A stretch of 64,000 nucleotides of DNA from the NCBI GenBank assembly GCA_039798445.1, contig JBDKFZ010000012.1, forward strand, positions 2,407 to 66,406, written 5' to 3'. Shown here one piece after another: positions 11,101 to 57,658 of this stretch; within the stretch, counting starts at the first letter, position 1, and the number at the start of each line of letters is the position of its first letter. The notes beneath the pieces were generated by a model. The model saw nothing but the letters and a program-made list of their open reading frames with translations, searched no databases and had not been told where the DNA came from. This stretch comes from Candidatus Parcubacteria bacterium (GTDB lineage Bacteria; Patescibacteriota; Minisyncoccia; Phycocordibacterales; EsbW-18). The translations under genes and the position numbers were made by a program.

Positions 11101-11267
11101 AAAAGGTTTGAACCATCGGCGTCTGACGCCGCAGCAGACCATCCGTAATTAGCCGCAAACCCTGTAGGGGTCACCTCCAGCCACGTGTCTGTCGCAAACA
11201 CCAAACTTGGCAATACAAGCGCAAGTATCAAAAAAGAAAAAGTGAGGAAAGAAAGTAGTTTTTTCAT
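8193..11267 (-). CDS. giant secreted surface protein P1 (1024 aa): signal peptide, BNR/Asp-box-like propeller, Big_5-like Ig domains, PD40/TolB-like repeats, shared C-terminal helix module (no peptidoglycan-binding domain)
   Basis: Signal peptide MKKLLSFLTFSFLILALVLPSLVFA. About 8 repeats of S-x-[DN]-G-G-[VI]-[DST]-W-x-ERQPAG, 3 Ig-like units ending ETTWNFT, and about 7 repeats of SxDGRYVVFxSxATNLVxxDTNGxxDIFVYD. Tail reads GSHRRSGGGGSG...LEQLQLKLIELLKQLLQELIKTQAGTL. Confidence 0.8.
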   Translation of the reverse strand: MKKLLSFLTFSFLILALVLPSLVFATDTWLEVTPTGFAANYGWSAAASDADGSNLFVGASGGGGRLWTSSNGGITWTQRQPIGNFDGSWRALDSDDDGSNLIVGGQNSRLYTSDDGGVSWTERQPAGDVTKSWWDAASDADGSNLIAGIATNGRLYTSSNGGVDWIERQPAGDVNGEWRSVDSDADGSNLIAGVLGGRLYTSSNGGVDWIERQPAGDVDTLWWGVASDADGSNLIASVSNGRLYTSSNGGVDWTERQPAGAVNKSWITVASDSDGSHLIAAVSSGRLYTSDDSGENWTEQQPAGATDKGWNAVALDADGSFMIANVNNGRVYMYPDIPNITTFDPADGAIEIGLDATFSITFEQDIATSTGDIVLYDASDDSVVETIDIAGGLVSLSGTDTLVIDPSVTLELGTEYYFLIDIGAVEDLVGNGFVGISDETTWNFTSDAVPTSVGFTPGDDETGVAIDISQFDLYFSETVVAGTGNITLFKTSDDSVVETFDVTDGDAVTVDSTLVSLFPTVTLENETDYYFHIDATAIEDESGNLFAGIADETTWNFIAAPAITFDFERVSISDGAEEGDGTSQNPKISSDGRYVVFESVATNLVPDDTNGTYDIFVYDRQANSVKRVSLNGEGGENVENAGEPEISGDGRFVLFSTSGLLLPENMVGVSNVFVYDRDTEELTFVSKNEGGEEGDSDSARSALSEDGRYIVFTSQATNLVVGDTNGKTDIFVYDQTMEAITREVAFDTEDQYFLNANEDELILSNDGRYIVYVRFDNDTSLTNVFLFDRESDTTEQVDVDSDEVTGDASATTPAISEDGRYVVFWSDSTNLTADEVNGSGAVFLRDRTLGTTELIGDDYVTGNGYVSGRVAVSSDGRYVFYTAYDEGGEDLHLYRYDREEDVELLITEGVGIADGGASVSYPDVSDGGTVVSFYSSNTNLVIGDTNGVADVFVWEEINEEETPPAEDEEDDGGSSGSHRRSGGGGSGETMPPATGTPLEQLQLKLIELLKQLLQELIKTQAGTL

Positions 11268-14096: not shown

Positions 14097-14126
14097 GAGA
14101 ATGATGAAGCTAAAAGAATGCCCAAA

Positions 14127-14138
14127 GTATAGCAAAAG
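14127..14138 (-). promoter_or_regulatory. extended -10-like box TGCTATACT upstream of P2
   Basis: Minus strand reads ttttGCTATACTttggg, about 25 nt upstream of ATG 14096, overlapping the P3 terminator T-run. Confidence 0.35.
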
Positions 14139-14159
14139 CCACGGATTCCCGTGGCTTTT
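14134..14159 (-). terminator. rho-independent terminator after P3
   Basis: aaaagccacgg-attc-ccgtggctttt. Confidence 0.65.
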
Positions 14160-14184
14160 GTGTGAATTGACTAGAATCTAATGT

Positions 14185-17100
14185 CTACAAACCGTTGATA
14201 TACGCCCTCGTCACTGGTCCGAAGTATCCAGCAGCTGGAGTGATACCGACAGATGCTTGGTATTCAGCAAGAGCTGCTTGGGTGAGAGGGCCGAAGAAGC
14301 CTGTTGCTCCAACTGCTGCAAGAGCTTGGGCTTGTGGTCCCTTGTTTTGAGCAATGAGGAAGAGTTGGAGTGCTGTTACGTCTGGTCCCTTACTATTGAG
14401 ATCGAGGTCGCGGGTGTAGATATCTGATGTGGTTGATGGGATGCCGAGAAGTGAAGCCAGTATCGCCTTGAGTTCTTCGATGCGGGCTTGGAGAGACTCG
14501 AGGAGAGTTGTGTCGTCACGGAACGACGGAGGATTGACGAGAGGCTTTCGGTGACTTCCGCTTCTGGTTTCCCCATCATCTTCAACTTCGTCCACGTCTT
14601 CTGAATCATAAATACCAAACCAACCAGACGATCCTCCTACATATAGTTCATCGCCATCAGGGTGAAGGGCCAACGCATACATGTAGTAGGCATCTGTGGG
14701 ATTGAAATCAAGAACACTGGCATTAGACGTCTGAATTGCAGCGAGATAATCACGCAACGCCCCTCCTTCAGAATTAAAACTTCCACCTGCATAGAGGACC
14801 TCATCGTCAGATGTGAGAGCGAGAGAATACACAGCACCGCCTTCCGCGAAATCTGGGTCAAAATCGAGAAGCCCAAGATCGGACGTTGAGAATGCTGCAA
14901 GACCAGCACGTGCACCACCCCCAGTTTCTAACACACGCAACACCCCTCCTCCTGCAAAGATATTTCCATTTACGGGACCACTGATGGTATATACATCGTA
15001 ACCAAAACTAGTATTAAGACGGGCACTGAATTCTGTGAGTGTTGCGTCACTCGTATTGAGTGCTACGAGACCGGCAACATTCTCACCACTTATGTTTGTA
15101 AAACCACCACCCGCATACAGAACGGACTCGTCAGAAGAAAGACTTAATGCATACACCGTAGAGTTGGCGTCGGGGGCAAAAGGCATTGCAAGACCGTCGT
15201 CTGTGTCGATTGCAGCAAGACGATAGCGCTCGCTTCCAAGACACACTTCCTCTTCGTCATCATACCCACCAACACAGTAGAAATCTCCTCCTGCAAACAA
15301 AACACTGTCATCATCCGAGAGTTCCAGTGAGTAGACGCTACTGTTCATATCAGGATTAAACGCAGTTGCAACGCTCGTTGTTTCTGTTGTATCAAGTGCT
15401 GCGAGATAGTTTCTATCCGCATTACATACTTCCAGACCCGAATCATATTCGACACAAGAGAAACTTCCTCCCACATACAATGTCAAATCATCAGAAGAAA
15501 GAGCAAGACTTGTGGCACCGTTATTTAGAGAGGGCGCAAAGTCTGTTGCAACTCCATCTGAGGTGTTGAATCCAGCGACGTGACCGCGATCTGTTGCGCC
15601 ATTAACTACTAGGAAGTTCCCCGCTGCGTAGAGTGTTGCCTCATCTGAACTTAGTTGAAGTGCGTATACGTCGCCATTCATGTCGGGATCAAAATTGGTC
15701 AGTGATCCATCACTCGTATCGAATGCGGCAAGACGATTTCTTGTTGTTGAGTTGATCGTTGTGAATTCTCCACCCGCGTAAAGCGTTTCTCCATCAGAAG
15801 AAAGTGCGAGGGCCCGAACTGTTCCCCCCTCAGAACCGAAGTCCGGCTCGAAGGTAGGATCGATAGTCATATCAGGAAGAATGTGTGCAATGCGCGAGTC
15901 CCATACTCCTCCATCTATACGGTTGAAGGACCCACCAGCATACCAACCACCGTTGCCGTCCGGGATAGATGCGTGGACTGTGCTTGCATTCGTCGAAAAA
16001 ATCGACTGTGAATCAACAAATGATCCTGTTGTGGCGTCAAAAATACCTCCCTCACCGATATTTATAAGGCCTGGTGTAAATTCAGTAAACTCACCTCCCG
16101 CATATAACGTCTCTCCGTCAGAGGAGAGTGTGAGGGCCCGAACCGTATCATCCGCTGGAAATTCTGTAGAAAGAAGGGTGGAACCGTCAGTGGTATCAAG
16201 TGCGACCAGTTTTTCTGTGAAGTCTCCACCAGCGTACAAACTGTTGCCATCAGACGAGAGTTTAAGTGCGCGAACCTCACCATCAAGTGAAGGAGTGAAC
16301 GCAATCTCCGCTCCTGTACCCGCGTCCATTTTTGCTACGTAATAAACGTCCCCGCCTACTCCCCATTCCTCAAAATCTCCACCGGCGTACACCGTTGAAC
16401 CATCAGAAGAGACAACAAGAGAATAAACCGTATATCCACCCCCCATATTGGGATTAAAATCCGTCATGACTCCATCAATTGTAGTGACCGCCGCAAGACT
16501 GTAACGATTACCTCCGATTCCATTTATTCCATTAAAAGCACCTCCAATATAGAGAGTCCCAGCATCTGGTGAGAGAGCGAGAGCATGCACCGACTGATCT
16601 ACTGAGACCACGTTTGGATTAAAATCAGTTAGTTCATACGTAGCAAGATCGATTGCAGCGACTTCACTTCGAGAAACACGATCTGCTTGTGTCATTGAAC
16701 CCCCTGCAAGCAACTGTCCATTCACAGAAGAAAGCGCGTAAACTGTACCATCGTAAAATCCACCACCAAAATCCTCTGCGGTCGCCGTGCCGTCAGAAAC
16801 TGCGAGTGCTGCGATTCTATTGCGTGTCGTTCCTCCATTAACCGCTGTAAATGACCCACCTGCGTAAAGTGTGGTCTCATCAGAAGAAAGTGCGAGTGAA
16901 TACACAAAACCAGCACCCACGTTTGGGTCAAATGCCTCTACAAGTGAGCCGTCGGTCGTATCAACTGCAGCAATTTTGTTACGTGTCGTGCCAGAATTAA
17001 CATCTGTAAACACTCCTCCTATATAGAGTGTCGAATCATCGTCTGAAAGAGCCATCGCAAGAATGTCATCATTAACATTTGGATCAAAGACAAGCTGACT

Positions 17101-17979
17101 TCCATCAGACGTGTCGAATGCAAAAAGCGCGTCATACCCATCACCTATCCCAAATTCCGTAGTACCACCCCCCACATACAATATGTCTCCGCCGGAAGAA
17201 AGGGCTAAAGAATTGGGGCGTGCAGGGAAAGTGATGTCCCCTCCAAAATCAACACCGGGAACAAGGGAGCCGTCTGTTGTATTAAGCGCGGCAAGACCAT
17301 ATGCAGATTGTCCATTAACCGAAACAAATGTTCCACCGACATACAATGTTTCTCCATCCGGAGAAAGCACAATCGCCTTAACAATATTGGTCAAGTTTGG
17401 ATTAAACGCTGTAAGTGTCCCATCTGATGTATTAATCGCTGCAAGACGATTTCGTGTCGTACCATTGATTTCAGAAAAATCACCTCCAACATAAAGTGTT
17501 TCACCGTCTGGTGAAAGAGCCAGGGCTAAAACCATATCTCCAAGAATAAATACGGGATCAAAATCGGTATCAATAGATCCATCAGAAAGCACGTGTGCAA
17601 GGGAGTAAAGGCTCTCTCCGTTTACTGTGTCAAAATCCCCACCGACATACCAGCCCCCAACCCCATCATCTGTAACAGCAAAAACTGTTTCTTCATCGCC
17701 TGGGGTCACTCTTTCAAATCTCGGGAACGTTTCCACTCGTTCTCCTGTTTCCTCAGTAAACAAAACTGCATTACCAACAATCTTCGAAACCTGAGAAAAA
17801 CTTCCGCCGAGATACAATGTGTCGCCATCAGTTACAACCACATTTATCTGATCACTAAACGTATACTTATTCTTTACTGCATCCAATGTTTCGGAGAGTG
17901 TTGGTGCTGCTTGCACAAAAAATGGTGCGATGACAAGCACAGCAAGGAGGGCGAAGATGGAACGATACAATGCCTTCAT
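14185..17979 (-). CDS. giant secreted surface protein P3 (about 1264 aa): signal peptide, about 22 delta-60-like propeller repeats, shared C-terminal linker module, C-terminal peptidoglycan-binding domain (PG_binding_1-like)
   Basis: Likely start MKALYRSIFALLAVLVIAPFFVQA at 17979 (ORF-track TTG at 18000). C-terminus reads DDGETRSGSHRKPLVNPPSFRDDTTLLESLQARIEELKAILASLLG then YTRDLDLNSKGPDVTALQLFLIAQNKGPQAQALAAVGATGFFGPLTQAALAEYQASVGITPAAGYFGPVTRAYINGL. Confidence 0.85.
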   Translation of the reverse strand: MKALYRSIFALLAVLVIAPFFVQAAPTLSETLDAVKNKYTFSDQINVVVTDGDTLYLGGSFSQVSKIVGNAVLFTEETGERVETFPRFERVTPGDEETVFAVTDDGVGGWYVGGDFDTVNGESLYSLAHVLSDGSIDTDFDPVFILGDMVLALALSPDGETLYVGGDFSEINGTTRNRLAAINTSDGTLTAFNPNLTNIVKAIVLSPDGETLYVGGTFVSVNGQSAYGLAALNTTDGSLVPGVDFGGDITFPARPNSLALSSGGDILYVGGGTTEFGIGDGYDALFAFDTSDGSQLVFDPNVNDDILAMALSDDDSTLYIGGVFTDVNSGTTRNKIAAVDTTDGSLVEAFDPNVGAGFVYSLALSSDETTLYAGGSFTAVNGGTTRNRIAALAVSDGTATAEDFGGGFYDGTVYALSSVNGQLLAGGSMTQADRVSRSEVAAIDLATYELTDFNPNVVSVDQSVHALALSPDAGTLYIGGAFNGINGIGGNRYSLAAVTTIDGVMTDFNPNMGGGYTVYSLVVSSDGSTVYAGGDFEEWGVGGDVYYVAKMDAGTGAEIAFTPSLDGEVRALKLSSDGNSLYAGGDFTEKLVALDTTDGSTLLSTEFPADDTVRALTLSSDGETLYAGGEFTEFTPGLINIGEGGIFDATTGSFVDSQSIFSTNASTVHASIPDGNGGWYAGGSFNRIDGGVWDSRIAHILPDMTIDPTFEPDFGSEGGTVRALALSSDGETLYAGGEFTTINSTTRNRLAAFDTSDGSLTNFDPDMNGDVYALQLSSDEATLYAAGNFLVVNGATDRGHVAGFNTSDGVATDFAPSLNNGATSLALSSDDLTLYVGGSFSCVEYDSGLEVCNADRNYLAALDTTETTSVATAFNPDMNSSVYSLELSDDDSVLFAGGDFYCVGGYDDEEEVCLGSERYRLAAIDTDDGLAMPFAPDANSTVYALSLSSDESVLYAGGGFTNISGENVAGLVALNTSDATLTEFSARLNTSFGYDVYTISGPVNGNIFAGGGVLRVLETGGGARAGLAAFSTSDLGLLDFDPDFAEGGAVYSLALTSDDEVLYAGGSFNSEGGALRDYLAAIQTSNASVLDFNPTDAYYMYALALHPDGDELYVGGSSGWFGIYDSEDVDEVEDDGETRSGSHRKPLVNPPSFRDDTTLLESLQARIEELKAILASLLGIPSTTSDIYTRDLDLNSKGPDVTALQLFLIAQNKGPQAQALAAVGATGFFGPLTQAALAEYQASVGITPAAGYFGPVTRAYINGL

Positions 17980-18007
17980 AGTTTCAGATGTTAATTTCAA
18001 TCCTCAA

Positions 18008-38200: not shown

Positions 38201-38201
38201 C

Positions 38202-39436: not shown

Positions 39437-39548
39437 TTAGCAATTGGCAATTAAAAAACTCCAAATGTATGGCGCAGAGCGGAGTGGATCCGGGTTTTTC
39501 CGAGCCTGCGAGGACAAAACGCGGACCACGCAGCGAAGGTCATACCGC
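39437..39548 (-). repeat. repeat element A2 (inverted copy of A1) in the pilB-pilC intergenic region
   Basis: Aligns to the reverse complement of 26093..26201. Begins with gcaattggcaatt and ends near ggaccacgcagcgaagg. Confidence 0.85.
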
Positions 39549-39555
39549 GAGGTCC

Positions 39556-41310: not shown

Positions 41311-41376
41311 ATCTTTGCGCTTTATTGTATCAGTTCTACAAAAAAGAGAACGTGAATAAAAACGAGATATGAAAAA

Positions 41377-41406
41377 GGCCTGTGCACCGTAGTGGTACAC
41401 AGAGCC
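41377..41406 (-). terminator. rho-independent terminator after the GC-rich hypothetical gene, upstream of pilB
   Basis: ggcctgtgcacc-gtagt-ggtacacagagcc followed by tttttcat on the minus strand. Confidence 0.55.
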
Positions 41407-41494
41407 TCCATCGTACAACCGATGGTGTGTTGGGCAGTAGTGCCCGAAACAAAGCGAGAACGTTCACGCGGGATGCAAGGGTCGGAGCCTCGTA

Positions 41495-46637: not shown

Positions 46638-49600
46638 CTAAAGACTATTTACGTATGCCCTCGTTACCGGCCCAAAGAATCCTACAGCAGGAGTGATACC
46701 GACAGGTGCTTGGTATTCAGCCAAAGCTGCTTGTGTAAGAGGTCCAAAGAAGCCTGTGGCTCCGTTTGAGGCGAGCGATTGTGCTGCGGGTCCCTTGTTC
46801 TGTGTCATGAGGAAGAGCTGGAGCTGGAGGACATCGTCCCCTTGTGCACCGAGATCGAGGTCACGGGTGTAGAGGTTGGATGTTGTCGTTGGAGTGCCGA
46901 GGAATGCGAGCATTGCTGGTGACGGGGTGCCGCCTTGTGCGATGAATTGGGTAATGAGGGTGCGGAGAAGGGTGAGAAGGTCGGAGCTTCCGCCTGTTGT
47001 TCCTGAACCACCGCCGCGACGATGAGATGAGCTTCCTCCCCCGTCTTCTTCCTCTTCATCATCGGCTGGCGGGGTTTCTTCTTCAACAACCTCTTCCCAA
47101 ACGAAGACGTCCGTCGAACTATTTGTATCACCCGTAACAAGGTTTGTTGCGTCAGAAACAAAACCTATGATTAAACCGTCATTTGAAATTGCTGGGCTGT
47201 CTGAATATCCACTCCCATCAGAGTTCGACGAGCCCTCAGTTATGTACAGCAATGTGTCTGTTGTACGGTCATATCGATAGACACCCGCATAGTCCCCCTC
47301 TCCATCATCCGTAGTTTGACCGAACGCAACATAGCGACCATCGGCAGAAATGACAGGTGCGTAAGAGGAGTCAGCGTCATCATTTGTAATACGTTCCATC
47401 ACTCCTGTCTCCCTATCAAGCACGAATACATCTTGAACGCCCTCTGTATCATCAGAAACTAGATTGTCTGCGTTGGATGAAAACGCAACATAGCGACCAT
47501 CGGCAGAAATTGCCACACCTCCTCCCGCGATATCACTATTTCCCTCCTCGTCCAAGTCATTTTTATCAACCATCTCCACAGTATCCGCATCTCTGTCATA
47601 CACATACAGGTGGTTATATCCTTCAATGGCTTCCGGCACAAGCAGACCACTCGTACTAAAGGTCACAAAGTTCCCGTTGCCTGATATTCGGACGGCACCT
47701 TGAACGTTTTCTGTGTTTTCTCCTCCTTCATCATCAAGACTCACCCGTTCAATAGTATCGGTGTCACGATCGTAGACAAAAGCATCACTTCTGCTATTTG
47801 TATCATCCGTAACAAGGTTTGTCGCATCGGAGTAAAAAGCGACATAACGACCATCGTTAGAAAGAATAGGATCATATGAAGCCCCATCCCCTTCCTGACC
47901 AAGGTCATTGAGACTTACGCGCTCAACCGTATCAGTGTCACGATCGTACACAAAAACATCGAAGGTATCATTGGTGTCATCGGGGATAAGGTTCGTCGTA
48001 GCTGAACGAAAAGCTACATACCTACCGTCAGATGAGATGCTCGGGGTCTGTGAATTACTGTCTCCTTCCTCACCAAGGTCGCTCACACTTACCCGTTCAA
48101 TGGTGTCTAAATCACGATCGTAGACAAAGACATCGTCCCATCCGTTTGTGTCATCCGAAACAAGATTGGTTGCTCCTGAACTAAAGACGACATACCTGCC
48201 ATCTGTCGAAAGGGAAACATTGAATCCTGTGGAATCGCCCTCTTCACCTTCGTTGTTTACGTTCACACGTTCAAAATCAAGTGCGGGTGGTGCTGGAACA
48301 TCTTGTACCGTAAAGTTCCATGTTGTTTCGTCCGCAATTCCAACATACGAGTTACCAGTACCATCCACAAAAGCTCCCTCGTCAATTAGCAGGTAATACG
48401 CCGTGGCATATTCAAGATCGACGTCTTGATATATGTAGACGTTTTCATCCTCGGCCTCAAGAGCATCGGCATCCGTCACGTCAAAAGTGGCGACAGTGCT
48501 GTCATCAGAAACTTTTTTAAGGGTTATGTTTCCTGTTCCAACAACGACATCTTGATCAAAAACAATCGTTGGGGTACCTCCCGAAAAAACAGTTATCGAA
48601 ACGTCTTCAGCATCATCTGCGGGTGAAAACGTTTCGACCACAGGAGGTGCATCTGTCGTAAAACTCCACTGTGTTTCATCCGAAATCCCAACAAACGGAG
48701 CGCCCCCATCATCTTCGATTGCTCCTGTATCAATGAGCACGTAATATTCTGTTGCCTCTTCGAGATCCGCATCTAAATCAATCTCCAACGTTGTAGTATC
48801 GGAGAGCGTAGCTTTTGGACCGGCAACATCTACTGTTTCGACCAGACTATCGTCGCTTGCTTTGTGAATTGTTATATTTCCCGTTGTTGTCGCAATGTCT
48901 TTATTAAAAACAAGAGTGAGGTTTGTGCCTACAACAACCTCTCTGGCGTTGTCTGAAGGTGTAAAACTGTCTAATACAATTGGCTCTGGTGTTACATACA
49001 ACCCACCCTCGACAGTAGCAACAATAAGATTCGAGCCGTCGGCGTCTGAAGCAACAGCCTGCCAAGCATAGCTATTGACACCTCCCGGCTGTTCTTCAAA
49101 CCACGTATCTCCACCGTCGTCAGAAGAATGTAGACTTCCTCCATTTACCCCCGCAAGCAAATTTGTACCAGTATCATCGGAAGCAACTGACCCCCAACCT
49201 TCAGTCGGAAAACCTGTGGGTTGACGCTCCATCCAGTTTGCACCACCATCACTTGATGTATATACAAGAGTGTTTCCTCCGGCAACGATGAGATTCGAAC
49301 CATCGGCGTCGGAGGCAACCTTGTCCCAGTTTTTTTCGGTGTCACCGGCAGGTCGACGCTCTACCCATGTATCTCCTCCATCGTCGGAGACATAAATAAA
49401 CCCATTAAACGTACCGATAATGAGCACAGAACCATCCGCATCTGAATCAACAGATATGATATTTATCTGTGTCGAAGTTGCAGTATGTTCTTCCCATGTA
49501 TCTCCGCCGTCGAAAGACGTATAGATAGTACTAGTTGCGCTTGTAACAGCGGCGAGATTCGAGCCATCGGCGTCTGAAGCAATACCCGTCCAATATTCAA

Positions 49601-49970
49601 CTGCACCACTGCTTGGATCAAGTGCGCTCCACGTCTCTCCACTATCCTCTGATCTATAGAGAAGGCCTGAGGCCCCGCCCCCTACAAGTAAGTTGGTTCC
49701 AGTAGAGTCTGATTTGACACTACGTGCTCCGTTCCCTGATGGACCCACAAGGTGTTCGGCCCATATTCCCCCAAAGTCGTGTGAAATGAAAATACTATTT
49801 GTTGAATTTCCTGCAATAAGATTTGAACCGTCGGCGTCTGAGGCAACAGCTCTCCATGCAGTTGAGGCATCTGTAGTAAACCATTCGTGAGATGCAGCAA
49901 ACACCGGCGTCACTTGGAGGAGAAGTGCGACGGTTGCGAGAGTTGCAGCGAATTTGCGGAGTAGTTTCAT
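46638..49970 (-). CDS. giant secreted surface protein P4 (about 1110 aa): signal peptide, BNR/Asp-box-like propeller, Big_5-like Ig domains, PD40-like repeats, shared C-terminal module, peptidoglycan-binding domain
   Basis: Likely start MKLLRKFAATLATVALLLQVTPVFA at 49970. Tail EEEEDGGGSSSHRRGGGSG...LLTLLRTLITQFIAQGGTPSPAMLAFLG...YTRDLDLGAQGDDVLQLQLFLMTQNKGPAAQSLASNGATGFFGPLTQAALAEYQAPVGITPAVGFFGPVTRAYVNSL. Confidence 0.85.
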   Translation of the reverse strand: MKLLRKFAATLATVALLLQVTPVFAASHEWFTTDASTAWRAVASDADGSNLIAGNSTNSIFISHDFGGIWAEHLVGPSGNGARSVKSDSTGTNLLVGGGASGLLYRSEDSGETWSALDPSSGAVEYWTGIASDADGSNLAAVTSATSTIYTSFDGGDTWEEHTATSTQINIISVDSDADGSVLIIGTFNGFIYVSDDGGDTWVERRPAGDTEKNWDKVASDADGSNLIVAGGNTLVYTSSDGGANWMERQPTGFPTEGWGSVASDDTGTNLLAGVNGGSLHSSDDGGDTWFEEQPGGVNSYAWQAVASDADGSNLIVATVEGGLYVTPEPIVLDSFTPSDNAREVVVGTNLTLVFNKDIATTTGNITIHKASDDSLVETVDVAGPKATLSDTTTLEIDLDADLEEATEYYVLIDTGAIEDDGGAPFVGISDETQWSFTTDAPPVVETFSPADDAEDVSITVFSGGTPTIVFDQDVVVGTGNITLKKVSDDSTVATFDVTDADALEAEDENVYIYQDVDLEYATAYYLLIDEGAFVDGTGNSYVGIADETTWNFTVQDVPAPPALDFERVNVNNEGEEGDSTGFNVSLSTDGRYVVFSSGATNLVSDDTNGWDDVFVYDRDLDTIERVSVSDLGEEGDSNSQTPSISSDGRYVAFRSATTNLIPDDTNDTFDVFVYDRDTDTVERVSLNDLGQEGDGASYDPILSNDGRYVAFYSDATNLVTDDTNSRSDAFVYDRDTDTIERVSLDDEGGENTENVQGAVRISGNGNFVTFSTSGLLVPEAIEGYNHLYVYDRDADTVEMVDKNDLDEEGNSDIAGGGVAISADGRYVAFSSNADNLVSDDTEGVQDVFVLDRETGVMERITNDDADSSYAPVISADGRYVAFGQTTDDGEGDYAGVYRYDRTTDTLLYITEGSSNSDGSGYSDSPAISNDGLIIGFVSDATNLVTGDTNSSTDVFVWEEVVEEETPPADDEEEEDGGGSSSHRRGGGSGTTGGSSDLLTLLRTLITQFIAQGGTPSPAMLAFLGTPTTTSNLYTRDLDLGAQGDDVLQLQLFLMTQNKGPAAQSLASNGATGFFGPLTQAALAEYQAPVGITPAVGFFGPVTRAYVNSL

Positions 49971-49998
49971 GTAATGGGAGCTAAAAACAATATCAAAA

Positions 49999-50010
49999 GT
50001 ATACCAAAAA
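49999..50010 (-). promoter_or_regulatory. extended -10 box TGGTATACT upstream of P4
   Basis: Minus strand reads gggtttttGGTATACTtttgatatt, about 30 nt upstream of ATG 49970. Confidence 0.4.
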
Positions 50011-50043
50011 CCCCTCAACTCTTTGGTTTTTGGGGATTACTCT

Positions 50044-53000
50044 CTAGAGTCCATTAATATGCGCCCTCGTCACTGGTCCAAAGTACCCTGCTGCTGGGGT
50101 GATGCCGACAGATAGCTGGTATTCAGCAAGAGCCGCTTGGGTGAGAGGTCCAAAAAGGCCTGTGGCTCCAACGACTGCAAGTGCTTGAGCCTGTGGTCCT
50201 TTGTTTTGAGCGATGAGGAAGAGTTGGAGTGCTGTTACGTCAGAGCCTTCGCTGTTGATGTCGAGATCGCGGGTGTATGTGCCTCCTGTAGTTGCTGGAG
50301 CACCAAGGAATGCGAGCATCGCTGGTGATGGGGTGCCACCTTGTGCGATGAATTGGGTGATGAGGGAGCGGAGGAGAGCAAGAAGATCTTGTGATGTGCC
50401 GCCTGAAGCAGGAGCAACTCCACGTCCTCGGTGAGAAGAGCTGCTGCCTCCCCCACTGTCGCCGTTGTCGTCATCATCGTCATCGTCACCAGAAGGAATC
50501 TCGTCTTCAATCAGTGTGTAGATAGCCAGTCCACCCGTGAAGGCTCCGCCGGCATAGAGTTCAGACTGGTCTGGCGAAAGAATGAGAGTGTTAACAGAAC
50601 TATCGATATCATCCACAGAAGGGCTGAAATCGCTTACCTCACCCGTCGCACTATTTACACTAGCGATTCTGAGTCGATCCAAACCATCGATTTGAGTGAA
50701 GTCACCACCAACGTAAAGAGTTGATCCATCGGAACTCAAATCGAGCCCTCGCACAGTGCTGTCGGGGTTAGGAGCAAAAGCGGTGGCAATACTATCGGCA
50801 ATGGTAAACTCTGCGAGATAATTACGTGTGGCATCTCCCCCGTTTACATCTCCAAAGTCTCCACCGGCAAAAACGGTTGATTCATCAAGAGAGAGCTTGA
50901 GAGCCCTCACTGTGCCATCAACATCCGGATTGAATGCTGTTACTGCACCATCTGCAGTTGTAAATGATGCAAGACGGCTGCGAGAGGCGGCACCGTTGTT
51001 GACTGTCGTGAACGCTCCTCCGGCATAGAGAACTGATTCGTCTGCAGAAAGCTCGAGAGAATTCACTGTCGAGCTCATATTCGGGTTGAATGCCGTCACA
51101 ACACCGTCCACCGTTGTGAATGCAGCGATACGCCTGCGCGATGTGCCTCCATTCACCGTCTGGAAGCTTCCTCCTGCATAGAGGATGCTGTCATCAGAAG
51201 AGAGCTTGAGGGCGTTCACCGTGCTGGCCATATTCGGATTAAACGCTGTTACAACTCCGTCCACGGTCGTAAACGCAGCAAGACGGTTTCGAGTTGTTCC
51301 AAGACACCCCCCTTCACCATCAAATATCCCATTTACACAGATAAACGTCCCGCCAACATAGAGCGTTAGTCCATCAGAAGAGAGTGCCAGCGCATTAACG
51401 GTATTGTTTATATCTGGATCAAAAGGCAAAAGAGTGTACGACGAGAGATCAATTGCGGCTACGTTATGACGAGTAGAAGCACCCGCCGCGGTGAAACTAC
51501 CACCGATATAAACGACACCATCCGCGACATCCGCCGCAGCCACACCTCCGTTCAGAGCAGGATCAAAATCTGTAACATTACTTGTAGCTAAATCAAACTC
51601 AGCAAATCCAGCTCGAGGTATATCACCATTCACCGTAGTCAGCTCTCCTACCGCATACAGCGTCAAACCATCCGAAGAAAAATCCATTCCACTTACTCTC
51701 CCTCCAGTAATATCAGGATCGAAATCAGTAGCGATACTAGTTGTTACATCAACAGCCGCAACTCCATTTCGGATTGTCCCCCCATTCACATCTCCAAACG
51801 TACCTCCAACATAAAGCGTCTCTCCATCAGGAGAAAGGAGAAGAGAGTACACACTGCCGTTAACGTTGGGGTCAAAATCAGTAGCGATACCCGTTGTAGC
51901 ATCAACAGCTGCGACACCGTTCCGCTCGACATATTCTGAAAGACTAAATGATCCACCGATATACAGTGCTGTACCATCTACGGCAATCTCAGAAATTCCT
52001 GAGTTTGAACCTGTAAAACCCGGGTCAAAATCAGTGACTAACGATGTTGTCGTATCAAACGCCGCGATACCAAGTCGCTCAACGTCATCATTTACCATGC
52101 TTATATTTCCTCCGACATACACCAGAGAACCGTCTTCCGAAAGGGCAATACTTGTTACAGAGTCGAACTCACTAATACCGGCGTCAAAACTCGTTACCGT
52201 TCCTGTCGTTGCATCGAATGCAGCAAGACGATTGCGTGTAGTTCCGCCATTCACTGTACTGAAATACCCTCCCGCATACACCACCGATCCATCTACGGCT
52301 ATTTCGTTAATCGTATCATTAACATTGGGGTTGAAAGCAGTTACCTCTCCTGTCGTTGCATCAAACGATGCAAATCTGTTGCGTGTTGTGTCTCCATTCA
52401 CTTCAGTAAAATCTCCGCTGATGTATACGACTGAACCTGCGAGCACCATACTACTACCAGCTTGGAATGAGTCTCCAAGATCTGGATCAAAAGAAGTCGC
52501 AACGCTGGTATCTGTGTCAAAAGCCGCTGCTCCATGTCGAGTCGTTGCTCCGTTTACCGTCTGGAAGTTTCCTGTCACGTACAAAGTTCCATCATCGGGA
52601 GAAAGTGCAATAGCATTAGCGCCCCCTTCTATGTTTGGATCAAAGTCTGTAGCAACACCTGTTTCTGTGTAGAAAGCGGCAACTTTATTTCGAGTGGTTG
52701 CGCCCCCGTTAACCGTAGAGAAGTATCCTCCCGCGTACAAAATCTCTCCATCCGAAGAAAGCGCCAATGAAATCACTGAGCTATCCAAATCTGGATCAAA
52801 GTTGGGGTCGACAGTGCCATCTGCGAGTATGTGGGCTAGACGATTACGCGCGGTGTTTTGAGCGGTCAAATTTGTAAAGTTTCCTCCGACATACCAACCG
52901 CCGTCTCCATCAGAAACAGCGACCGCCGGGTTGCCCCCATTGACTGTCGGCAACAAACTTTTTTGTTCGGCAGTCGTATCAAAAATGAATTCTTGAGCAT

Positions 53001-55470
53001 ACGTATAATTGTTTACTGAGGTCATGTTTGGTCCTCCCATGTACACCACACCATCGTCATACGCCAATGCCACACCGGCACTTGAATTAGGTGCTGGGTC
53101 AAAATCCAAGACCTCCGAGGTATCAGTATCAAATGCGGCAACGCGTCTACGTGGATACGCCCCGACATTACTGATGGAGCCAGAGATAAAGAGGATTGTA
53201 TCGTCTGGTGACAATACTAAGGCACGCACGGCACCGTCTGGGTCAGGTATGTCAAAATCTGTTGCCACGCCCGTCTCTGTGTCAAACGCGGCGACACCGC
53301 CACGCGAGACTTCTTCATTGTTTACATAACTAAAACCTCCACCTGCATAGAGAATAGAACCATCAGAAGAAAGAACGAGAGATTCAACGGTGGCATTTAC
53401 ATTCGGGTCAAAACCTTCATCAACAGTTCCCAGGCTCGTGATATGCGCAATATTATTGCGATCTGTTCCTCCAACAGATGTAAACGTTCCTCCGATATAC
53501 CAACCACCATCTCCATCAGAAACAACTACTGAAACTTGTCCTTCTACTTCGGGAAAAGTACTAACCGCTGCCTGTGTTGTTTCGTCAAATGGTATACCAC
53601 CACCCGTTGTGCCTCCACCCACAGCAAAGTCAAAGTTTCCACCAACGTAGAGTGTTGTGCCGTCAGTAACAACGGCGTTTATTGGTCCGTCAAATGAAAC
53701 TCGATTCTTAAGTTCATCAAGAACAGCATCTGGTGGTGGTGCAGCTTGGGTCGTAAAATTCCACGTTGTTTCATCTGCAATTCCTCCATACGCGTTTCCG
53801 TTTTCATCTTCGAGCGCTCCCGCATCGATGGTGAAGTAATACTCCGTTCCATATTCAAGGGCTCCCGTTTCCGGATATAGGTAGACAGTACTACCCCCAG
53901 CCTCTACAGCATCTCCGTCCGTAACATCAAAGGTTTCAACCGTACTATCATCAGAAACCTTTTTAAGAGTTATGTTTCCACTTCCTACAACCATGCTCTG
54001 ATTAAACTCGATAGTAACGTTCTCCTCTGCAAGAAATTCTATTGCAATATTTTCTGCATCATTTGCAGGTGAAAAACTGACAACAACAGGGGCTGTGTCG
54101 GTCGTAAAACTCCATGCCGTTGGATCAGAAATACCTGCAAATGCGTTACCGACAAGGTCTTCAATCGCACCTGCATCTATAAGAACGTAATACCCAGTCG
54201 CTACGTCTAATATCGTAGTGGGATCAATCGTGAGATCTGTACCAGAAACCGTTACCTTGGGACCAGCTACATCTATTGTTTCAATAAGCGAATCATCGCT
54301 TGTTTTATATAGCTCAATAGAACCCGTTGAAGTGGCAATGTCTTCGTTAAAAGTAATCGAGAAGGTTCCATCAACGGCAACTTCTGTTGCTTCGTCTGTG
54401 GGGTCAAACGATAGAACAAAAGGGCCCGTGTTGTCAGGAGCTAAAAAGAAAGCACCGTAACTAGCAAAAGCGATATGGGTTCCATCGGCGTCGGAAGCAG
54501 CGAAGCTTGCTGAGACTTGTCTGTTTCCTCCAGGATTCTCTTCTAACCACGTTTCACCGCTATCCTCGGAAGAAAAAAATCTTGGGGAACCACCATCGTT
54601 GCCGTATACAAACAAATTTGATCCACTTGCATCTGATGTGCCCGCTCCCCAATATACGCCAACATCCCCTGCTGGCTGACGTTCTGTCCAATCCACCCCT
54701 CCGTTTGAAGATGTATAAATACGTCCACTACCACCTGCACCCACAATAAGATTAGATCCATCGGCGTCTGAGGCAGCTATGTTCCATGCTTTACCAACAT
54801 CTCCCGCCGGCTGACGTTCTGTCCAATTGGCACCGCTGTCGCTTGATGTATATACACGACCAGAACCAATATAAGCATCAGCAAAAGTATCAACAACAAG
54901 AAGATTTGAACCATCTGCGTCCGAGGCAACAACATTCCAATCCCTATCAACATCCCCTGCTGGCTGACGTTCTGTCCAATCAACTCCTCCGTTTGAAGAT
55001 GTATAAAGACGTCTACCGCCCGCAGCTACAATAAGATTAGAGCCATCCGCATCTGAGGCAGCAGCGCGCCAGTAGTTGTCAATATCACCCGCTGGCTGAC
55101 GTTCTGTCCAATCAACTCCTCCGTTTGAAGATGTATAAAGACGACCAGAGTACACGCCCGCAACTAAATTGGAACCGTCGGCATCTGATGCTACCGGCCT
55201 CCATTGCTGGTCCTGAGCCCCACCCGGCTGACGTGCTGTCCAATTGGCACCGCTGTCGTCTGATACGTAGATATATCCCGAGCCATCAGCAAGAATGAGA
55301 TTCGATCCGTCGGCGTCTAATGCAACACCGTTAAAAGCGATCTGGTCGTTAGTAGCCGCGCCTGTCGGTCGAGGCTCACCCCACGTGTGTTCTGCAGCAA
55401 ACACTGGCGTCACCTGAAAGACCAGGCTGAGAATTGCGAAGGCGGCGACGCATTTGCGTAGGAGTTTCAT
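50044..55470 (-). CDS. giant secreted surface protein P5 (1808 aa): signal peptide, BNR-like propeller, Big_5-like Ig domains, about 25 delta-60-like repeats, shared C-terminal module, peptidoglycan-binding domain (mosaic of both subfamilies)
   Basis: MKLLRKCVAAFAILSLVFQVTPVFA signal. N-terminus like P4, central repeats like P2/P3. Tail DDDDDDDNGDSGGGSSSSHRGRG...LLALLRSLITQFIAQGGTPSPAMLAFLG...PGBD. Confidence 0.85.
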   Translation of the reverse strand: MKLLRKCVAAFAILSLVFQVTPVFAAEHTWGEPRPTGAATNDQIAFNGVALDADGSNLILADGSGYIYVSDDSGANWTARQPGGAQDQQWRPVASDADGSNLVAGVYSGRLYTSSNGGVDWTERQPAGDIDNYWRAAASDADGSNLIVAAGGRRLYTSSNGGVDWTERQPAGDVDRDWNVVASDADGSNLLVVDTFADAYIGSGRVYTSSDSGANWTERQPAGDVGKAWNIAASDADGSNLIVGAGGSGRIYTSSNGGVDWTERQPAGDVGVYWGAGTSDASGSNLFVYGNDGGSPRFFSSEDSGETWLEENPGGNRQVSASFAASDADGTHIAFASYGAFFLAPDNTGPFVLSFDPTDEATEVAVDGTFSITFNEDIATSTGSIELYKTSDDSLIETIDVAGPKVTVSGTDLTIDPTTILDVATGYYVLIDAGAIEDLVGNAFAGISDPTAWSFTTDTAPVVVSFSPANDAENIAIEFLAEENVTIEFNQSMVVGSGNITLKKVSDDSTVETFDVTDGDAVEAGGSTVYLYPETGALEYGTEYYFTIDAGALEDENGNAYGGIADETTWNFTTQAAPPPDAVLDELKNRVSFDGPINAVVTDGTTLYVGGNFDFAVGGGTTGGGIPFDETTQAAVSTFPEVEGQVSVVVSDGDGGWYIGGTFTSVGGTDRNNIAHITSLGTVDEGFDPNVNATVESLVLSSDGSILYAGGGFSYVNNEEVSRGGVAAFDTETGVATDFDIPDPDGAVRALVLSPDDTILFISGSISNVGAYPRRRVAAFDTDTSEVLDFDPAPNSSAGVALAYDDGVVYMGGPNMTSVNNYTYAQEFIFDTTAEQKSLLPTVNGGNPAVAVSDGDGGWYVGGNFTNLTAQNTARNRLAHILADGTVDPNFDPDLDSSVISLALSSDGEILYAGGYFSTVNGGATTRNKVAAFYTETGVATDFDPNIEGGANAIALSPDDGTLYVTGNFQTVNGATTRHGAAAFDTDTSVATSFDPDLGDSFQAGSSMVLAGSVVYISGDFTEVNGDTTRNRFASFDATTGEVTAFNPNVNDTINEIAVDGSVVYAGGYFSTVNGGTTRNRLAAFDATTGTVTSFDAGISEFDSVTSIALSEDGSLVYVGGNISMVNDDVERLGIAAFDTTTSLVTDFDPGFTGSNSGISEIAVDGTALYIGGSFSLSEYVERNGVAAVDATTGIATDFDPNVNGSVYSLLLSPDGETLYVGGTFGDVNGGTIRNGVAAVDVTTSIATDFDPDITGGRVSGMDFSSDGLTLYAVGELTTVNGDIPRAGFAEFDLATSNVTDFDPALNGGVAAADVADGVVYIGGSFTAAGASTRHNVAAIDLSSYTLLPFDPDINNTVNALALSSDGLTLYVGGTFICVNGIFDGEGGCLGTTRNRLAAFTTVDGVVTAFNPNMASTVNALKLSSDDSILYAGGSFQTVNGGTSRRRIAAFTTVDGVVTAFNPNMSSTVNSLELSADESVLYAGGAFTTVNNGAASRSRLASFTTADGAVTAFNPDVDGTVRALKLSLDESTVFAGGDFGDVNGGDATRNYLAEFTIADSIATAFAPNPDSTVRGLDLSSDGSTLYVGGDFTQIDGLDRLRIASVNSATGEVSDFSPSVDDIDSSVNTLILSPDQSELYAGGAFTGGLAIYTLIEDEIPSGDDDDDDDNGDSGGGSSSSHRGRGVAPASGGTSQDLLALLRSLITQFIAQGGTPSPAMLAFLGAPATTGGTYTRDLDINSEGSDVTALQLFLIAQNKGPQAQALAVVGATGLFGPLTQAALAEYQLSVGITPAAGYFGPVTRAHINGL

Positions 55471-55501
55471 AAAATAAATGGAGGTTAATTACAATATCAA
55501 A

Positions 55502-55515
55502 AGTATACCAAAAAA
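55502..55515 (-). promoter_or_regulatory. extended -10 box TGGTATACT upstream of P5
   Basis: Minus strand reads gggttttttGGTATACTtttgatattg, about 32 nt upstream of ATG 55470. Confidence 0.4.
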
Positions 55516-55547
55516 CCCTCGACTGTCTGAGTTTTTTGGGGATTCTG

Positions 55548-57587: not shown

Positions 57588-57602
57588 GACTTCAGAGCCC
57601 TC

Positions 57603-57614
57603 AGTATAGCAAAA
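57603..57614 (-). promoter_or_regulatory. extended -10-like box TGCTATACT upstream of P6
   Basis: Minus strand reads ggttttGCTATACTgagggc, 18 nt upstream of ATG 57587, directly after the P7 terminator hairpin. Confidence 0.35.
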
Positions 57615-57634
57615 CCACGGATTTCCGTGGTTTT
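57611..57634 (-). terminator. rho-independent terminator after P7
   Basis: aaaaccacgg-atttc-cgtggtttt. Confidence 0.65.
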
Positions 57635-57658
57635 GTGAGGATTGGTCGAAGCCAACGT

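What the first reader, a model, noticed from the sequence alone, without database searches (positions are those of the whole stretch)
50044..55470. P5 is a 1808-aa chimera of the two paralog subfamilies
Its signal peptide and N-terminal part are BNR-like blades plus two Big_5-like Ig domains. These are close to P4 (MKLLRKFAATLATVALLLQVTPVFAASHEW versus MKLLRKCVAAFAILSLVFQVTPVFAAEHTW). Residues from about 560 onward are about 25 delta-60-like blades of the P2/P3 type, with a C-terminus of the P4/P7 type. This points to recombination or domain shuffling among the paralogs, which is a mechanism for surface variation.
Basis: seen in the sequence. Interest (0 to 1): 0.5.

Follow-up and report, generated by a model that had tools for sequence, protein, structure and literature searches.

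The report
Mosaic cell-surface protein of a Parcubacterium
This gene encodes an intact 1808-residue secreted, cell-wall-anchored surface protein of an uncultured Parcubacteria bacterium that joins the front half of one paralog type to the propeller array of another, but the join is evolutionarily old, so it is ordinary domain shuffling and shows no sign of an active surface-variation switch.

Summary
It has a signal peptide, a six-Asp-box BNR propeller, two Big_5 Ig domains (to residue 575), 21 Rax2/DUF5122-type blades of the P2/P3 kind, an acidic/Gly-Ser linker, a helix and a PG_binding_1 domain.

Three details need correcting:
- There are 21 blades, not about 25, and they do not match the delta-60 model TIGR02608.
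- The N-terminal body is closer to P1 (56% identity) than to P4 (50%; 996 of 1000 bootstraps). Only the promoter/5'UTR, the signal peptide, Big_5 no. 2 and the C-terminal helix lean towards P4.
- The closest C-terminal cassette (88%) sits on a blade-type protein in another Parcubacteria assembly.

The join falls exactly where mature P2/P3-type proteins begin, just after their signal peptide. One in-frame fusion is therefore enough to explain it.

Nothing points to recent exchange. dS is above 1.5 in the N-terminal module and at least about 0.7 everywhere else. The longest exact match to the rest of the window is 29 nt. No recombinase or diversity-generating reverse transcriptase (DGR RT) lies in the window. 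Two assemblies give the identical protein.

Related MAGs carry the same N-terminal module and C-terminal cassette around a true delta-60 propeller, so this family swaps modules over evolutionary time. Interest is modest.

The parts
55502..55529 (-). Promoter-like site upstream of P5 (CAGACA, 16 nt, TATACT, with a TG-extended -10). It sits just after a hairpin and T-run.
   Evidence: consensus scan. One search shows the 'TTTTGGTATACT' box conserved upstream of six paralog genes. The P5 and P4 upstream regions are the most alike.
55393..55470 (-). Signal peptide, residues 1-26 (MKLLRKCVAAFAILSLVFQVTPVFAA|EH). It is the only hydrophobic segment in the protein.
   Evidence: It is 19/30 identical to the P4 signal peptide and 70% identical at nucleotide level. 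The signal peptides of P1 and P0004 are a different subtype (52% and 51% nucleotide identity to P5; sequences).
54436..55392 (-). BNR/Asp-box beta-propeller, residues 27-345, with six S-x-D-x-G-x-x-W boxes at a 44-51 residue period.
   Evidence: motifs. Sortilin-Vps10 at 28.8 bits, below the cut-off of 33; 54% identity to P1, 43% to P4, 58% to P0004; a 132-nt tandem repeat at 54947-55244.
54100..54435 (-). Big_5 Ig-like domain 1, residues 346-457.
   Evidence: PF13205, 105 bits, two stretches; 62% identity to P1, 57% to P4, 71% to P0009.
53746..54099 (-). Big_5 Ig-like domain 2, residues 458-575. It ends in 'TTWNFTTQ' and is the last part of the P1/P4-type module.
   Evidence: 62% identity to P4, 55% to P1. 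P4 is closer in 906 of 1000 bootstraps.
53689..53745 (-). Fusion junction, residues 576-594 (AAPPPDAVLDELKNRVSFDG...). It equals the mature N-terminus of blade-type proteins and is modelled as a short helix.
   Evidence: P2 has HA|APALDSIPDAVKSRYEFDG and P3 has QA|APTLSETLDAVKNKYTF. P0172 has HAAAPELVSIPDAVKGRYAFDG; many blade-type hits start at their residues 25-50; helix at model residues 5-15.
50521..53688 (-). Array of 21 Rax2/DUF5122-type beta-propeller blades, residues 595-1650, about 51 residues each.
   Evidence: 21 'LY.GG' motifs, spacing 49-60. (Rax2 at 110.8 bits, DUF5122 at 32.2 bits). (only P2 and P3 match). (all-beta model, pLDDT 71). (tandem-propeller folds).
50389..50520 (-). 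Acidic run, Gly/Ser run and the 'SSSSHRGRG' motif, residues 1651-1694.
   Evidence: The acidic/Gly-Ser/S-H-R-[KR] pattern is shared by the paralogs (G has SSRK) and by most outside homologs aligned; in P0004 and X610 it is only approximate (GGHRS, NHSRS).
50299..50388 (-). C-terminal helix, variant 1 (DLLALLRSLITQFIAQGGTPSPAMLAFLG), residues 1695-1724.
   Evidence: family D19 shows 84% nucleotide identity to P4 over 102 nt; dS 0.67 against P4.
50047..50298 (-). PG_binding_1 domain, residues 1725-1808, a non-covalent cell-wall anchor.
   Evidence: PF01471 at 26.5 bits against a cut-off of 23, and all 12 aligned members match; the profile hits PDB 5nm7 'Peptidoglycan-binding domain 1' at E 0.0035; 82.7% nucleotide identity to the 3' end of P3.
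46638..49970 (-). Paralog P4 (true start is the ATG at 49970; 1110 residues): BNR, two Big_5, PD40 propeller, variant-1 helix, PG_binding_1.
   Evidence: It is identical to P0011, 'RLY47_356 Candidatus Parcubacteria bacterium'.
8193..11267 (-). Paralog P1 (1024 residues): BNR, two Big_5, PD40, variant-3 helix, no PG_binding_1. It is the closest in-genome relative of the P5 BNR domain.
11373..18000 (-). Paralogs P2 (11373-14135) and P3 (14185-18000). Both have a signal peptide followed directly by Rax2/DUF5122 blades (13-14 and 20-21 blades).

Best explanation
P5 is an intact gene with its own promoter-like site. It encodes a giant secreted surface protein of a Candidatus Parcubacteria (Patescibacteria/CPR) bacterium.

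Shown:
- The order of parts is signal peptide, six-Asp-box BNR propeller, two Big_5 Ig domains, 21 Rax2/DUF5122-type blades, an acidic/Gly-Ser linker with an S-H-R motif, a helix, and a C-terminal PG_binding_1 domain.
- The first 575 residues belong to the P1/P4 type and the blades to the P2/P3 type.
- The switch lies exactly where mature blade-type proteins begin, just after their signal peptide.
- The whole stretch after the switch (blades, linker, helix variant 1, PG-binding domain) occurs together in a blade-type protein of another Parcubacteria assembly, X610 on locus L002.

Inferred, origin: one old in-frame fusion, most simply a deletion between two same-strand neighbouring genes. It would have placed the 5' part of a P1/P4-type gene (promoter, signal peptide, BNR, two Big_5) in front of a complete mature blade-type gene, replacing that gene's signal peptide. 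Later patchy exchange with the tandem neighbour P4, or a common origin of their 5' ends, would explain the P4-like promoter, signal peptide, Big_5 no. 2 and helix.

Inferred, function: the protein is exported by Sec. It is held on the cell's own peptidoglycan by the C-terminal domain, with the linker as a spacer, and presents the propellers and Ig domains outward as binding surfaces for a host cell or a polymer. The family diversifies by module exchange over evolutionary time, not by an on-going switch in this genome.
For: - Architecture and boundaries.
- Junction equals the mature N-terminus of blade-type proteins.
- The stretch after the junction is collinear with blade-type proteins. P5 645-1808 aligns with P3 51-1271 in one HSP. 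P5 1206-1808 aligns with X610 22-610 in one HSP at 45.7%. The last 114 residues are 88% identical to X610, against 75% for P4 and 77% for P7.
- Age: dS is 1.6 to unbounded in the N-terminal module. The C-terminal domain gives dS 0.77 against P3 in this genome and 0.76 against P0004 in another genome. The longest exact match to the rest of the window is 29 nt, and there is none near either junction.
- Same N-terminal module and C-terminal cassette with another central propeller in other MAGs: P0004 and P0006.
- Mosaic signal.
- Organism and gene reality: the window is JGI contig Ga0485267_0000068. The identical 1808-residue protein is NCBI MEN9405398.1, RLY47_357.
- Context for function: Paceibacteria highly express extracellular proteins with PG-binding and Ig-like domains, which the authors propose act in host attachment (PMC10936435).
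Against: - The N-terminus of X610 is cut by the contig end in both assemblies. It is therefore unknown whether X610 already carries the N-terminal module, and hence how old the fusion is.
- The N-terminal module and the PG-binding domain of P5 are also very close to those of P0004. That fits a two-break swap of the central propeller about as well.
- No expression, localisation or binding data exist.
- Searches for other proteins with the same Big_5-to-blade junction had limited sensitivity, so the apparent uniqueness is weak evidence.
- The AlphaFold model is only moderate (pLDDT 71, pTM 0.42), and the number of propellers was not resolved.
Confidence: 0.7

Rival explanations
1. One reading: the paralogs in this genome recombine with each other (gene conversion or cassette exchange) recently or continuously. 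P5 would be a current product of that process, which would generate surface (antigenic or host-range) variation.
For: - P5 and its tandem neighbour P4 share the promoter/5'UTR, the signal-peptide subtype, Big_5 no. 2 and the helix segment more closely than other pairs do (family D19).
- The MaxChi-type scan is significant.
- A sharp tract of high identity between two family members elsewhere shows that the family can exchange pieces.
Against: - The best in-genome tracts are 82.7% over 248 nt and 84% over 102 nt.
- dS is at least 0.67 everywhere and saturated in the N-terminal module.
- In-genome similarity of the C-terminal domain equals the between-genome similarity.
- The longest shared exact stretch is 29 nt.
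- No recombinase or DGR RT lies in the window.
- Two assemblies give the identical protein.
- The BNR domain is closer to P1 and to proteins of other genomes than to P4.
Confidence: 0.08
2. Two-break cassette swap. An ancestral gene already had the conserved N-terminal module and C-terminal cassette (signal peptide, BNR, two Big_5, a central propeller, linker, helix variant 1, PG_binding_1), as in P4 or P0004. Its central propeller alone was replaced by a blade array copied from a P2/P3-type gene.
For: - P0004 and P0006 show the same N-terminal module and C-terminal cassette around a delta-60 propeller, and P1 and P4 show the same N-terminal module around PD40.
- The BNR domain of P5 is closest to P0004 in 753 of 1000 bootstraps.
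- The C-terminal cassette of P5 is 83% identical to that of P0004.
- The linker 'IEDEIPSG(D)n' resembles the 'EEETPPA(D/E)n' of the P1/P4 type.
Against: - It needs two in-frame breaks where one is enough.
- The first break coincides with the exact mature N-terminus of blade-type proteins, including their N-terminal helix. A whole-gene fusion predicts this; a swap of an internal segment does not.
- The closest C-terminal cassette (88%) is attached to blades in X610.
Confidence: 0.2
3. Assembly chimera: the metagenome assembler joined the 5' half of a P1/P4-type gene to the 3' part of a P3-type gene across repeated sequence.
For: The region is repeat-rich, and related contigs break inside such genes (L002 and L011 both end inside X610).
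Against: - No exact repeat of 30 nt or more links P5 to any other gene in the window, and none lies near the junctions.
- The frame is open for 5427 nt, and the join sits on a domain boundary.
- JGI and NCBI contigs of different lengths (76.6 and 85.2 kb) encode the same protein, although they may derive from the same reads.
Confidence: 0.02

Closest known systems
P0004 and P0006 (unnamed proteins of Parcubacteria-like assemblies GCA_020047435.1 and GCA_020050275.1, 1075 and 1074 residues)
   Same: They share the signal peptide, BNR propeller, two Big_5 domains, acidic/Gly-Ser linker, helix variant 1 and PG_binding_1. The N-terminal module is 57% and 51% identical to P5, and the last 114 residues are 83% and 79% identical.
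   Different: The central part is a single propeller of true delta-60 repeats (TIGR02608, 201 bits), not 21 Rax2-like blades. The proteins are about 730 residues shorter, and their signal peptide is a different subtype.
Blade-type Patescibacteria surface proteins: P2 and P3 in this window, X610 on L002, P0172, P0238 and about 100 hits, some named 'peptidoglycan-binding protein' (Candidatus Taylorbacteria, Campbellbacteria)
   Same: They have the same Rax2/DUF5122 blades, the same mature N-terminal 'AAP..DAVK.RY.F' segment, and often the same linker and PG_binding_1 end. X610 has the identical order of parts after the blades.
   Different: Their blades follow the signal peptide directly. None of the hits listed has a BNR-plus-Big_5 module in front of this blade type. 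Most are 750-1050 residues, with about 14 blades.
Highly expressed extracellular proteins with peptidoglycan-binding and Ig-like domains in archaea-parasitising Paceibacteria (PMC10936435)
   Same: They come from the same bacterial class, are secreted, and have a PG-binding domain and Ig-like folds. Host attachment is the proposed role.
   Different: No sequence comparison was made here. Propeller arrays are not mentioned in that paper (the term 'propeller' occurs 0 times).
Mosaic surface-protein gene families shaped by recombination, and dedicated variation systems such as silent-cassette gene conversion or diversity-generating retroelements (my own knowledge, not tested against specific families)
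   Same: It is a family of tandem paralogous surface genes built from shared modules with incongruent module histories.
   Different: This window has no near-identical donor cassettes, no recombinase or reverse transcriptase, and no recent tracts.

Membership tests
PG_binding_1 (Pfam PF01471) | Match to the family profile above its gathering score | tested here: met
   The whole protein scores 21.0 bits, below the cut-off of 23. The isolated last 88 residues score 26.5 bits, and all 12 aligned C-termini match, with a best E of 3e-10. The profile hits PDB 5nm7 'Peptidoglycan-binding domain 1' at E 0.0035.
PG_binding_1 (Pfam PF01471) | Actual binding to peptidoglycan | not testable with these tools
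   This needs a pull-down of the purified C-terminal 84-114 residues with sacculi.
Big_5 bacterial Ig-like domain (PF13205) | Profile match above the gathering score | tested here: met
   105.2 bits against a cut-off of 23.6, in two stretches; the best is 346-457.
BNR/Asp-box (sialidase/sortilin-type) beta-propeller | Repeated S-x-D-x-G-x-x-W Asp-boxes at blade spacing, and a profile match | tested here: inconclusive
   Six Asp-boxes occur at a 44-51 residue period. Sortilin-Vps10 scores 28.8 bits, below its cut-off of 33. PDB 6p2l, a BNR glycosyl hydrolase, is hit only at E 8.5e-4.
DUF5122 (PF17164) and Rax2 C-terminal propeller (PF12768) | Profile match above the gathering score | tested here: met
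   DUF5122 scores 32.2 against 27, and Rax2 scores 110.8 against 28.8. The model is all-beta and matches tandem propellers.
delta-60 repeat domain (NCBIfam TIGR02608) | Match to the repeat model | tested here: not met
   P5, P2 and P3 give no hit at E <= 0.01. P0004 scores 201 bits in the same call.
Programmed surface-variation systems (silent-cassette gene conversion, invertible elements, DGRs) | Near-identical donor or recipient tracts in the genome | tested here: not met
   The longest exact match is 29 nt. The best tracts are 82.7% over 248 nt and 84% over 102 nt. Only this 64-kb window was examined.
Programmed surface-variation systems (silent-cassette gene conversion, invertible elements, DGRs) | Adjacent site-specific recombinase or reverse transcriptase | tested here: not met
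   Pfam scans of the neighbouring ORFs found housekeeping, competence and type IV pilus genes. The only RVT_3 hit is an RNase H-type protein.
Programmed surface-variation systems (silent-cassette gene conversion, invertible elements, DGRs) | Variants of the locus within a population | not testable with these tools
   No reads are available. Two assemblies give the identical protein but may share reads.

The most novel reading that the evidence does not exclude
Parcubacteria may carry a family of wall-anchored surface proteins built on a standard set of outer parts: promoter, signal peptide, BNR propeller, one to several Big_5 domains, then a linker and PG-binding end. The central beta-propeller (PD40, delta-60 or Rax2-like) would be exchangeable. 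Exchange of these modules between tandem paralogs and between lineages would then set which host or ligand the epibiont can bind. P5, with three propellers' worth of blades, would be the largest such recombinant and a lineage-specific host-range determinant.
Probability: 0.25. Interest if true: 0.5.

Novelty: new variant of a known kind. Interest (0 to 1): 0.3.

Why it matters
Patescibacteria depend on attaching to other cells, and their attachment proteins are almost unknown. This window shows a family of large wall-anchored proteins in which whole propeller modules have been re-assorted. P5 is the clearest case: its fusion point can be located to within a few residues. That gives a concrete set of candidate adhesins and a testable idea, that the central propeller sets binding specificity. 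The evidence does not show a new mechanism of variation, and the protein is already deposited as a hypothetical protein. The value is descriptive.

Tried and rejected
- Scan of species-representative genomes with full-length P5.
- Metagenome scan with residues 1-1640. It returned three loci: a syntenic P1 orthologue (L008) and two distant blade-type genes. There was no P5 orthologue, and the source contig itself is not in that collection.
- Junction-centred 161-residue protein search. It returned nothing, not even the protein itself, so it is uninformative.
- Full HMMER scan of 1.84 billion representatives with residues 441-850. Giant repeat proteins dominated the top 150. Of the listed hits whose best stretch crossed the junction, three (P0255, P0214, P0188) were checked with Pfam and none had a Big_5 followed by Rax2-type blades. 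This is a weak negative.
- Search with X610. It gave about 120 blade-type proteins, none with Big_5, but P5 and P3 themselves were missing from the list, so candidate selection is incomplete.
- Blade-by-blade score matrices of P5 against P3 and P2. There was no clean diagonal, so blade orthology and propeller boundaries could not be assigned.
- AlphaFold model of the blade array and Foldseek against the PDB. These gave only generic tandem-propeller similarity at about 11% identity, and the number of propellers stayed unresolved.
- Assembly chimera: considered and rejected.
- An ancestral P5-type from which the blade-type arose by loss of the N-terminal module: considered unlikely, because blade-type proteins with the same mature N-terminus are widespread across Patescibacteria.
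Full report
**Names.** All seven paralogs lie on the minus strand.
- P1 = 8193-11267
- P2 = 11373-14135
- P3 = 14185-18000
- P4 = 46638-50018 (true start is the ATG at 49970)
- P5 = 50044-55470
- P6 = 55548-57587
- P7 = 57659-60310

**Source.** The window is part of JGI metagenome contig Ga0485267_0000068 (76.6 kb, sample 3300046786). The same organism is in NCBI as a 'Candidatus Parcubacteria bacterium' MAG:
- P1 is RLY47_322.
- P4 is RLY47_356.
- P5 is MEN9405398.1 / RLY47_357, 1808 of 1808 residues identical.

The JGI gene call for P5 is 105 residues short and lacks the signal peptide.

The ORF is open for 1808 codons. Pfam finds two Big_5 domains (346-457 and about 458-575), Rax2 and DUF5122 propeller repeats, and a C-terminal PG_binding_1. 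PG_binding_1 is confirmed on the isolated domain at 26.5 bits against a cut-off of 23. Six Asp-boxes at a 44-51 residue period mark a BNR-type propeller in residues 27-345.

A sliding 80-residue BLASTP against the other paralogs gives a clean three-part picture:
- Residues 1-560 match only P1 and P4.
- Residues about 570-1640 match only P2 and P3.
- Residues 1640-1808 match P3, P4, P6 and P7.

The quoted signal peptides are present and 19/30 identical.

**Corrections to the observation.**

First, the blade array has 21 blades of about 51 residues, not about 25. The blades pass the Pfam DUF5122 and Rax2 thresholds but do not match NCBIfam's delta-60 model TIGR02608. A related protein, P0004, hits that model at 1e-60 in the same call.

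Second, the N-terminal module is not specifically P4-like. In a ten-sequence alignment its identity is 56% to P1 and 50% to P4, and 56-57% to three proteins of other genomes (P0004, P0008, P0009). Bootstrapping gave the following:
- P1 is closer than P4 in 996 of 1000 replicates overall.
- P1 is closer in 1000 of 1000 replicates for the BNR domain.
- P4 is the closest of all ten sequences in only 1 of 1000 replicates.
- Only Big_5 no. 2 leans to P4 (906 of 1000).

The signal peptide and the region upstream of the start codon are clearly P4-like.

Third, the C-terminus is itself mosaic. The helix at 1695-1724 is the variant found in P4, P6 and P7 (84% nucleotide identity to P4 over 102 nt, family D19). 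The final 84 residues are closest to P3 (82.7% nucleotide identity over 248 nt) and equally close to P0004 of another genome.

**Where the joins are.**

The first join is at residue 575/576. The sequence up to 'TTWNFTTQ' is the end of Big_5 no. 2, as in P1 and P4. From 'AAPPPDAVLDELKNRVSFDGPINAVVTDG' onward it reproduces the mature N-terminus of blade-type proteins, which in them follows the signal-peptide cleavage site directly:
- P2: ...VHA|APALDSIPDAVKSRYEFDG
- P3: ...VQA|APTLSETLDAVKNKYTF
- P0172: ...LHA|AAPELVSIPDAVKGRYAFDG

In the full HMMER scan, many blade-type hits align from query position about 146-155 to their own residues 25-50.

So P5 is an N-terminal module placed in front of a complete mature blade-type protein. 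Everything after the join is collinear with such proteins. P5 645-1808 aligns with P3 51-1271 in one HSP. P5 1206-1808 aligns at 45.7% with X610, the 3' part of a gene cut by the contig end in L002.

X610 has the same order of parts as P5: blades, acidic run, Gly/Ser run, helix variant 1, PG_binding_1. Its last 114 residues are 88% identical to P5, more than any in-genome paralog (P7 77%, P4 75%). The 'P4/P7-type' C-terminus therefore does not need a second recombination event. That cassette already travels with blade arrays elsewhere.

**How old is it?**

Nei-Gojobori estimates give dS of 1.6 to unbounded for the BNR domain and both Big_5 domains against P1, P4 and P0004. dS is 0.94 for the 30-codon signal peptide against P4 and 0.67 for the helix against P4.

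For the PG-binding domain, the in-genome pair P5-P3 has dS 0.77 and dN 0.08. The between-genome pair P5-P0004 has dS 0.76 and dN 0.09. The high C-terminal similarity among paralogs therefore reflects purifying selection on a conserved anchor, not recent concerted evolution.

The longest exact nucleotide match between P5 and the rest of the window is 29 nt, in the 3' end shared with P3. There is nothing of 30 nt or more, and nothing near either join. This argues against an assembly chimera. It also argues against present-day homologous exchange, which needs longer identical tracts (established knowledge, not tested here).

The 64 kb contains ribosomal protein S7, EF-G, PGK, TIM, RecJ, ComEC, an RNase H, type IV pilus genes and a sigma factor. 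It contains no invertase, integrase or DGR reverse transcriptase.

**Is the family modular?** Yes.
- P0004 and P0006, from two other Parcubacteria-like assemblies, have the same signal peptide-BNR-two Big_5 front and the same linker-helix-PG_binding_1 end as P5. Their centre is a single propeller of true delta-60 repeats.
- P1, P4 and many outside proteins have PD40 blades in that position.
- The number of Big_5 domains ranges from one (L008) to five (P0014) in the sequences read.
- There are three C-terminal cassette variants, one of which lacks the PG-binding domain.
- Module histories disagree. P5 groups with P1, P0004 and P0008 in the BNR domain but with P4 in Big_5 no. 2 (MaxChi-type p about 0.0005).
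- P0006 (delta-60 centre) and P0021 (PD40 centre), from different metagenomes, are 87-100% identical over residues 411-560 and 20-60% identical elsewhere. The shared tract is 605 nt at 82.5%.
- Gene order also differs. L002 and L011 read X610 - P0004 - P2 orthologue (70%) - RRM protein. The window reads P3 - P2 - P1 - RRM protein, and the two RRM proteins are 100% identical.

**Is the P5 architecture found elsewhere?** Not in what I could search.

Among the best 120 hits to full-length P5, only P5 itself, P0004 and P0006 combine a BNR/sortilin domain, Big_5 and a DUF5122-like domain. Of the listed top-150 hits in the 1.84-billion-representative scan whose best stretch crossed the junction, the three checked with Pfam did not have a Big_5 followed by Rax2-type blades. 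None of the 120 listed relatives of X610 has Big_5.

These negatives are weak. The word-indexed searches miss known relatives: P5 and P3 were absent, and one search did not even find the query's own protein. Ranking also favours giant repeat proteins.

**Most likely origin and function.**

I favour a single old in-frame fusion. Most simply, a deletion between two adjacent same-strand genes removed the central propeller, the C-terminal cassette and the terminator/promoter spacer of an upstream P1/P4-type gene, together with the signal peptide of a downstream blade-type gene. An arrangement of this kind, an N-terminal-module gene 88 nt upstream of a blade-type gene, exists in L002.

The P4-like 5' end and helix fit either a tandem-duplication origin of the P4 and P5 5' regions or old patchy conversion between neighbours. 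The main rival is a two-break swap of the central propeller within an existing gene that already had the shared N-terminal module and C-terminal cassette. It is not excluded, because the N-terminal module and the anchor of P5 are also very close to those of P0004.

Function is inferred from the parts:
- Sec export. The only hydrophobic segment is the signal peptide.
- Non-covalent attachment to the cell's own wall by PG_binding_1.
- An acidic/Gly-Ser spacer.
- Outward display of propellers and Ig domains as binding surfaces.

The blade array models as all-beta (pLDDT 71) and matches tandem-propeller structures only generically. Highly expressed extracellular proteins with PG-binding and Ig-like domains have been reported in host-attached Paceibacteria and proposed to act in attachment (PMC10936435).

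**Verdict.** The mosaic is real and the boundaries can now be stated precisely. It is an old gene fusion in a modular surface-protein family, not evidence of an active variation mechanism. The claim that the N-terminal part is specifically close to P4 fails except at the 5' end and in Big_5 no. 2. Novelty is a new domain combination within a known kind of protein. Interest is modest.

Noticed in passing
window 55471-55560, 49971-50060, 11268-11380, 14136-14195, 18001-18090 and 57588-57670 (minus strand): Six of the seven paralog genes are preceded by a hairpin and T-run that runs straight into a conserved 'TTTTGGTATACT' box (a TG-extended -10-like element). Each gene therefore appears to have its own terminator/promoter unit. 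P7 lacks the box.
   Followed up: partly
window 50389-50520 (P5 residues 1651-1694), and the equivalent positions in P1-P4, P6 and P7: The paralogs and most of the outside homologs aligned share an acidic run, then a Gly/Ser run, then an 'S-H-R-[K/R]' motif (often 'SHRKPISNPPSF'; only approximate in G, P0004 and X610) just before the C-terminal helix. No Pfam or NCBIfam hit fell on this segment in the whole-protein scans. It may be a processing or recognition site.
   Followed up: no
C-termini of P1-P7 (for example window 8193-8330, 11373-11500, 14188-14451): There are three C-terminal cassette variants: helix 'LLxLLRSLIxQFIAQGGTPSPAMLAFLG' plus PG_binding_1 (P4-P7); helix 'LLESLQARIEELKAILAxLLG' plus PG_binding_1 (P3); and helix 'LQLKLIELLKQLLQELIK' ending the protein with no PG-binding domain (P1, P2). 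How P1 and P2 stay on the cell is unclear.
   Followed up: partly
L003 1319-1923 and L012 1946-2550: P0006 (delta-60 centre) and P0021 (PD40 centre), from different metagenomes, share a 605-nt tract at 82.5% identity (residues 411-560, 87-100% identical). The proteins are otherwise 20-60% identical. This is a clear mosaic tract in the family.
   Followed up: partly
L002 1-8433 and L011 1-8123, compared with window 7808-18000: The cluster is rearranged in a related organism: X610 - P0004 - P2 orthologue (70%) - RRM protein, against P3 - P2 - P1 - RRM protein here. The 101-residue RRM protein is 100% identical. Both related contigs break at the same point inside X610.
   Followed up: partly
window 54947-55244, and P5 residues 1358-1520 (window 50911-51399): There are signs of blade duplication within the gene. 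A 132-nt tandem repeat (76-81% matches) lies in the BNR propeller. Array blades 16-18 are each other's best matches and share 'AAFTTVDGVVTAFNPNM'.
   Followed up: partly
window 55156-55470 (L001 10001): The JGI gene call for P5 starts at an internal GTG (1703 residues) and omits the signal peptide and first blades. The NCBI call is the full 1808 residues. Likewise, the longest ORF of P4 starts at a TTG at 50018, but the real start is the ATG at 49970.
   Followed up: yes
window 26202-41418: Between the two surface-protein clusters lie ComEC, RecJ, an RNase H/RVT_3 protein, a cell-wall hydrolase and a type IV pilus block (PilB-like ATPase, PilC-like T2SSF, a pilin-like protein with an N_methyl motif, and a 607-residue CarboxypepD_reg protein). 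This is typical Patescibacteria equipment for DNA uptake and attachment.
   Followed up: no
L008 46-2586: A syntenic orthologue of P1 in another metagenome (followed by the same 484-residue shikimate-dehydrogenase-like gene) has only one Big_5 domain. Other family members have up to five. Ig-domain copy number therefore varies within the family.
   Followed up: no
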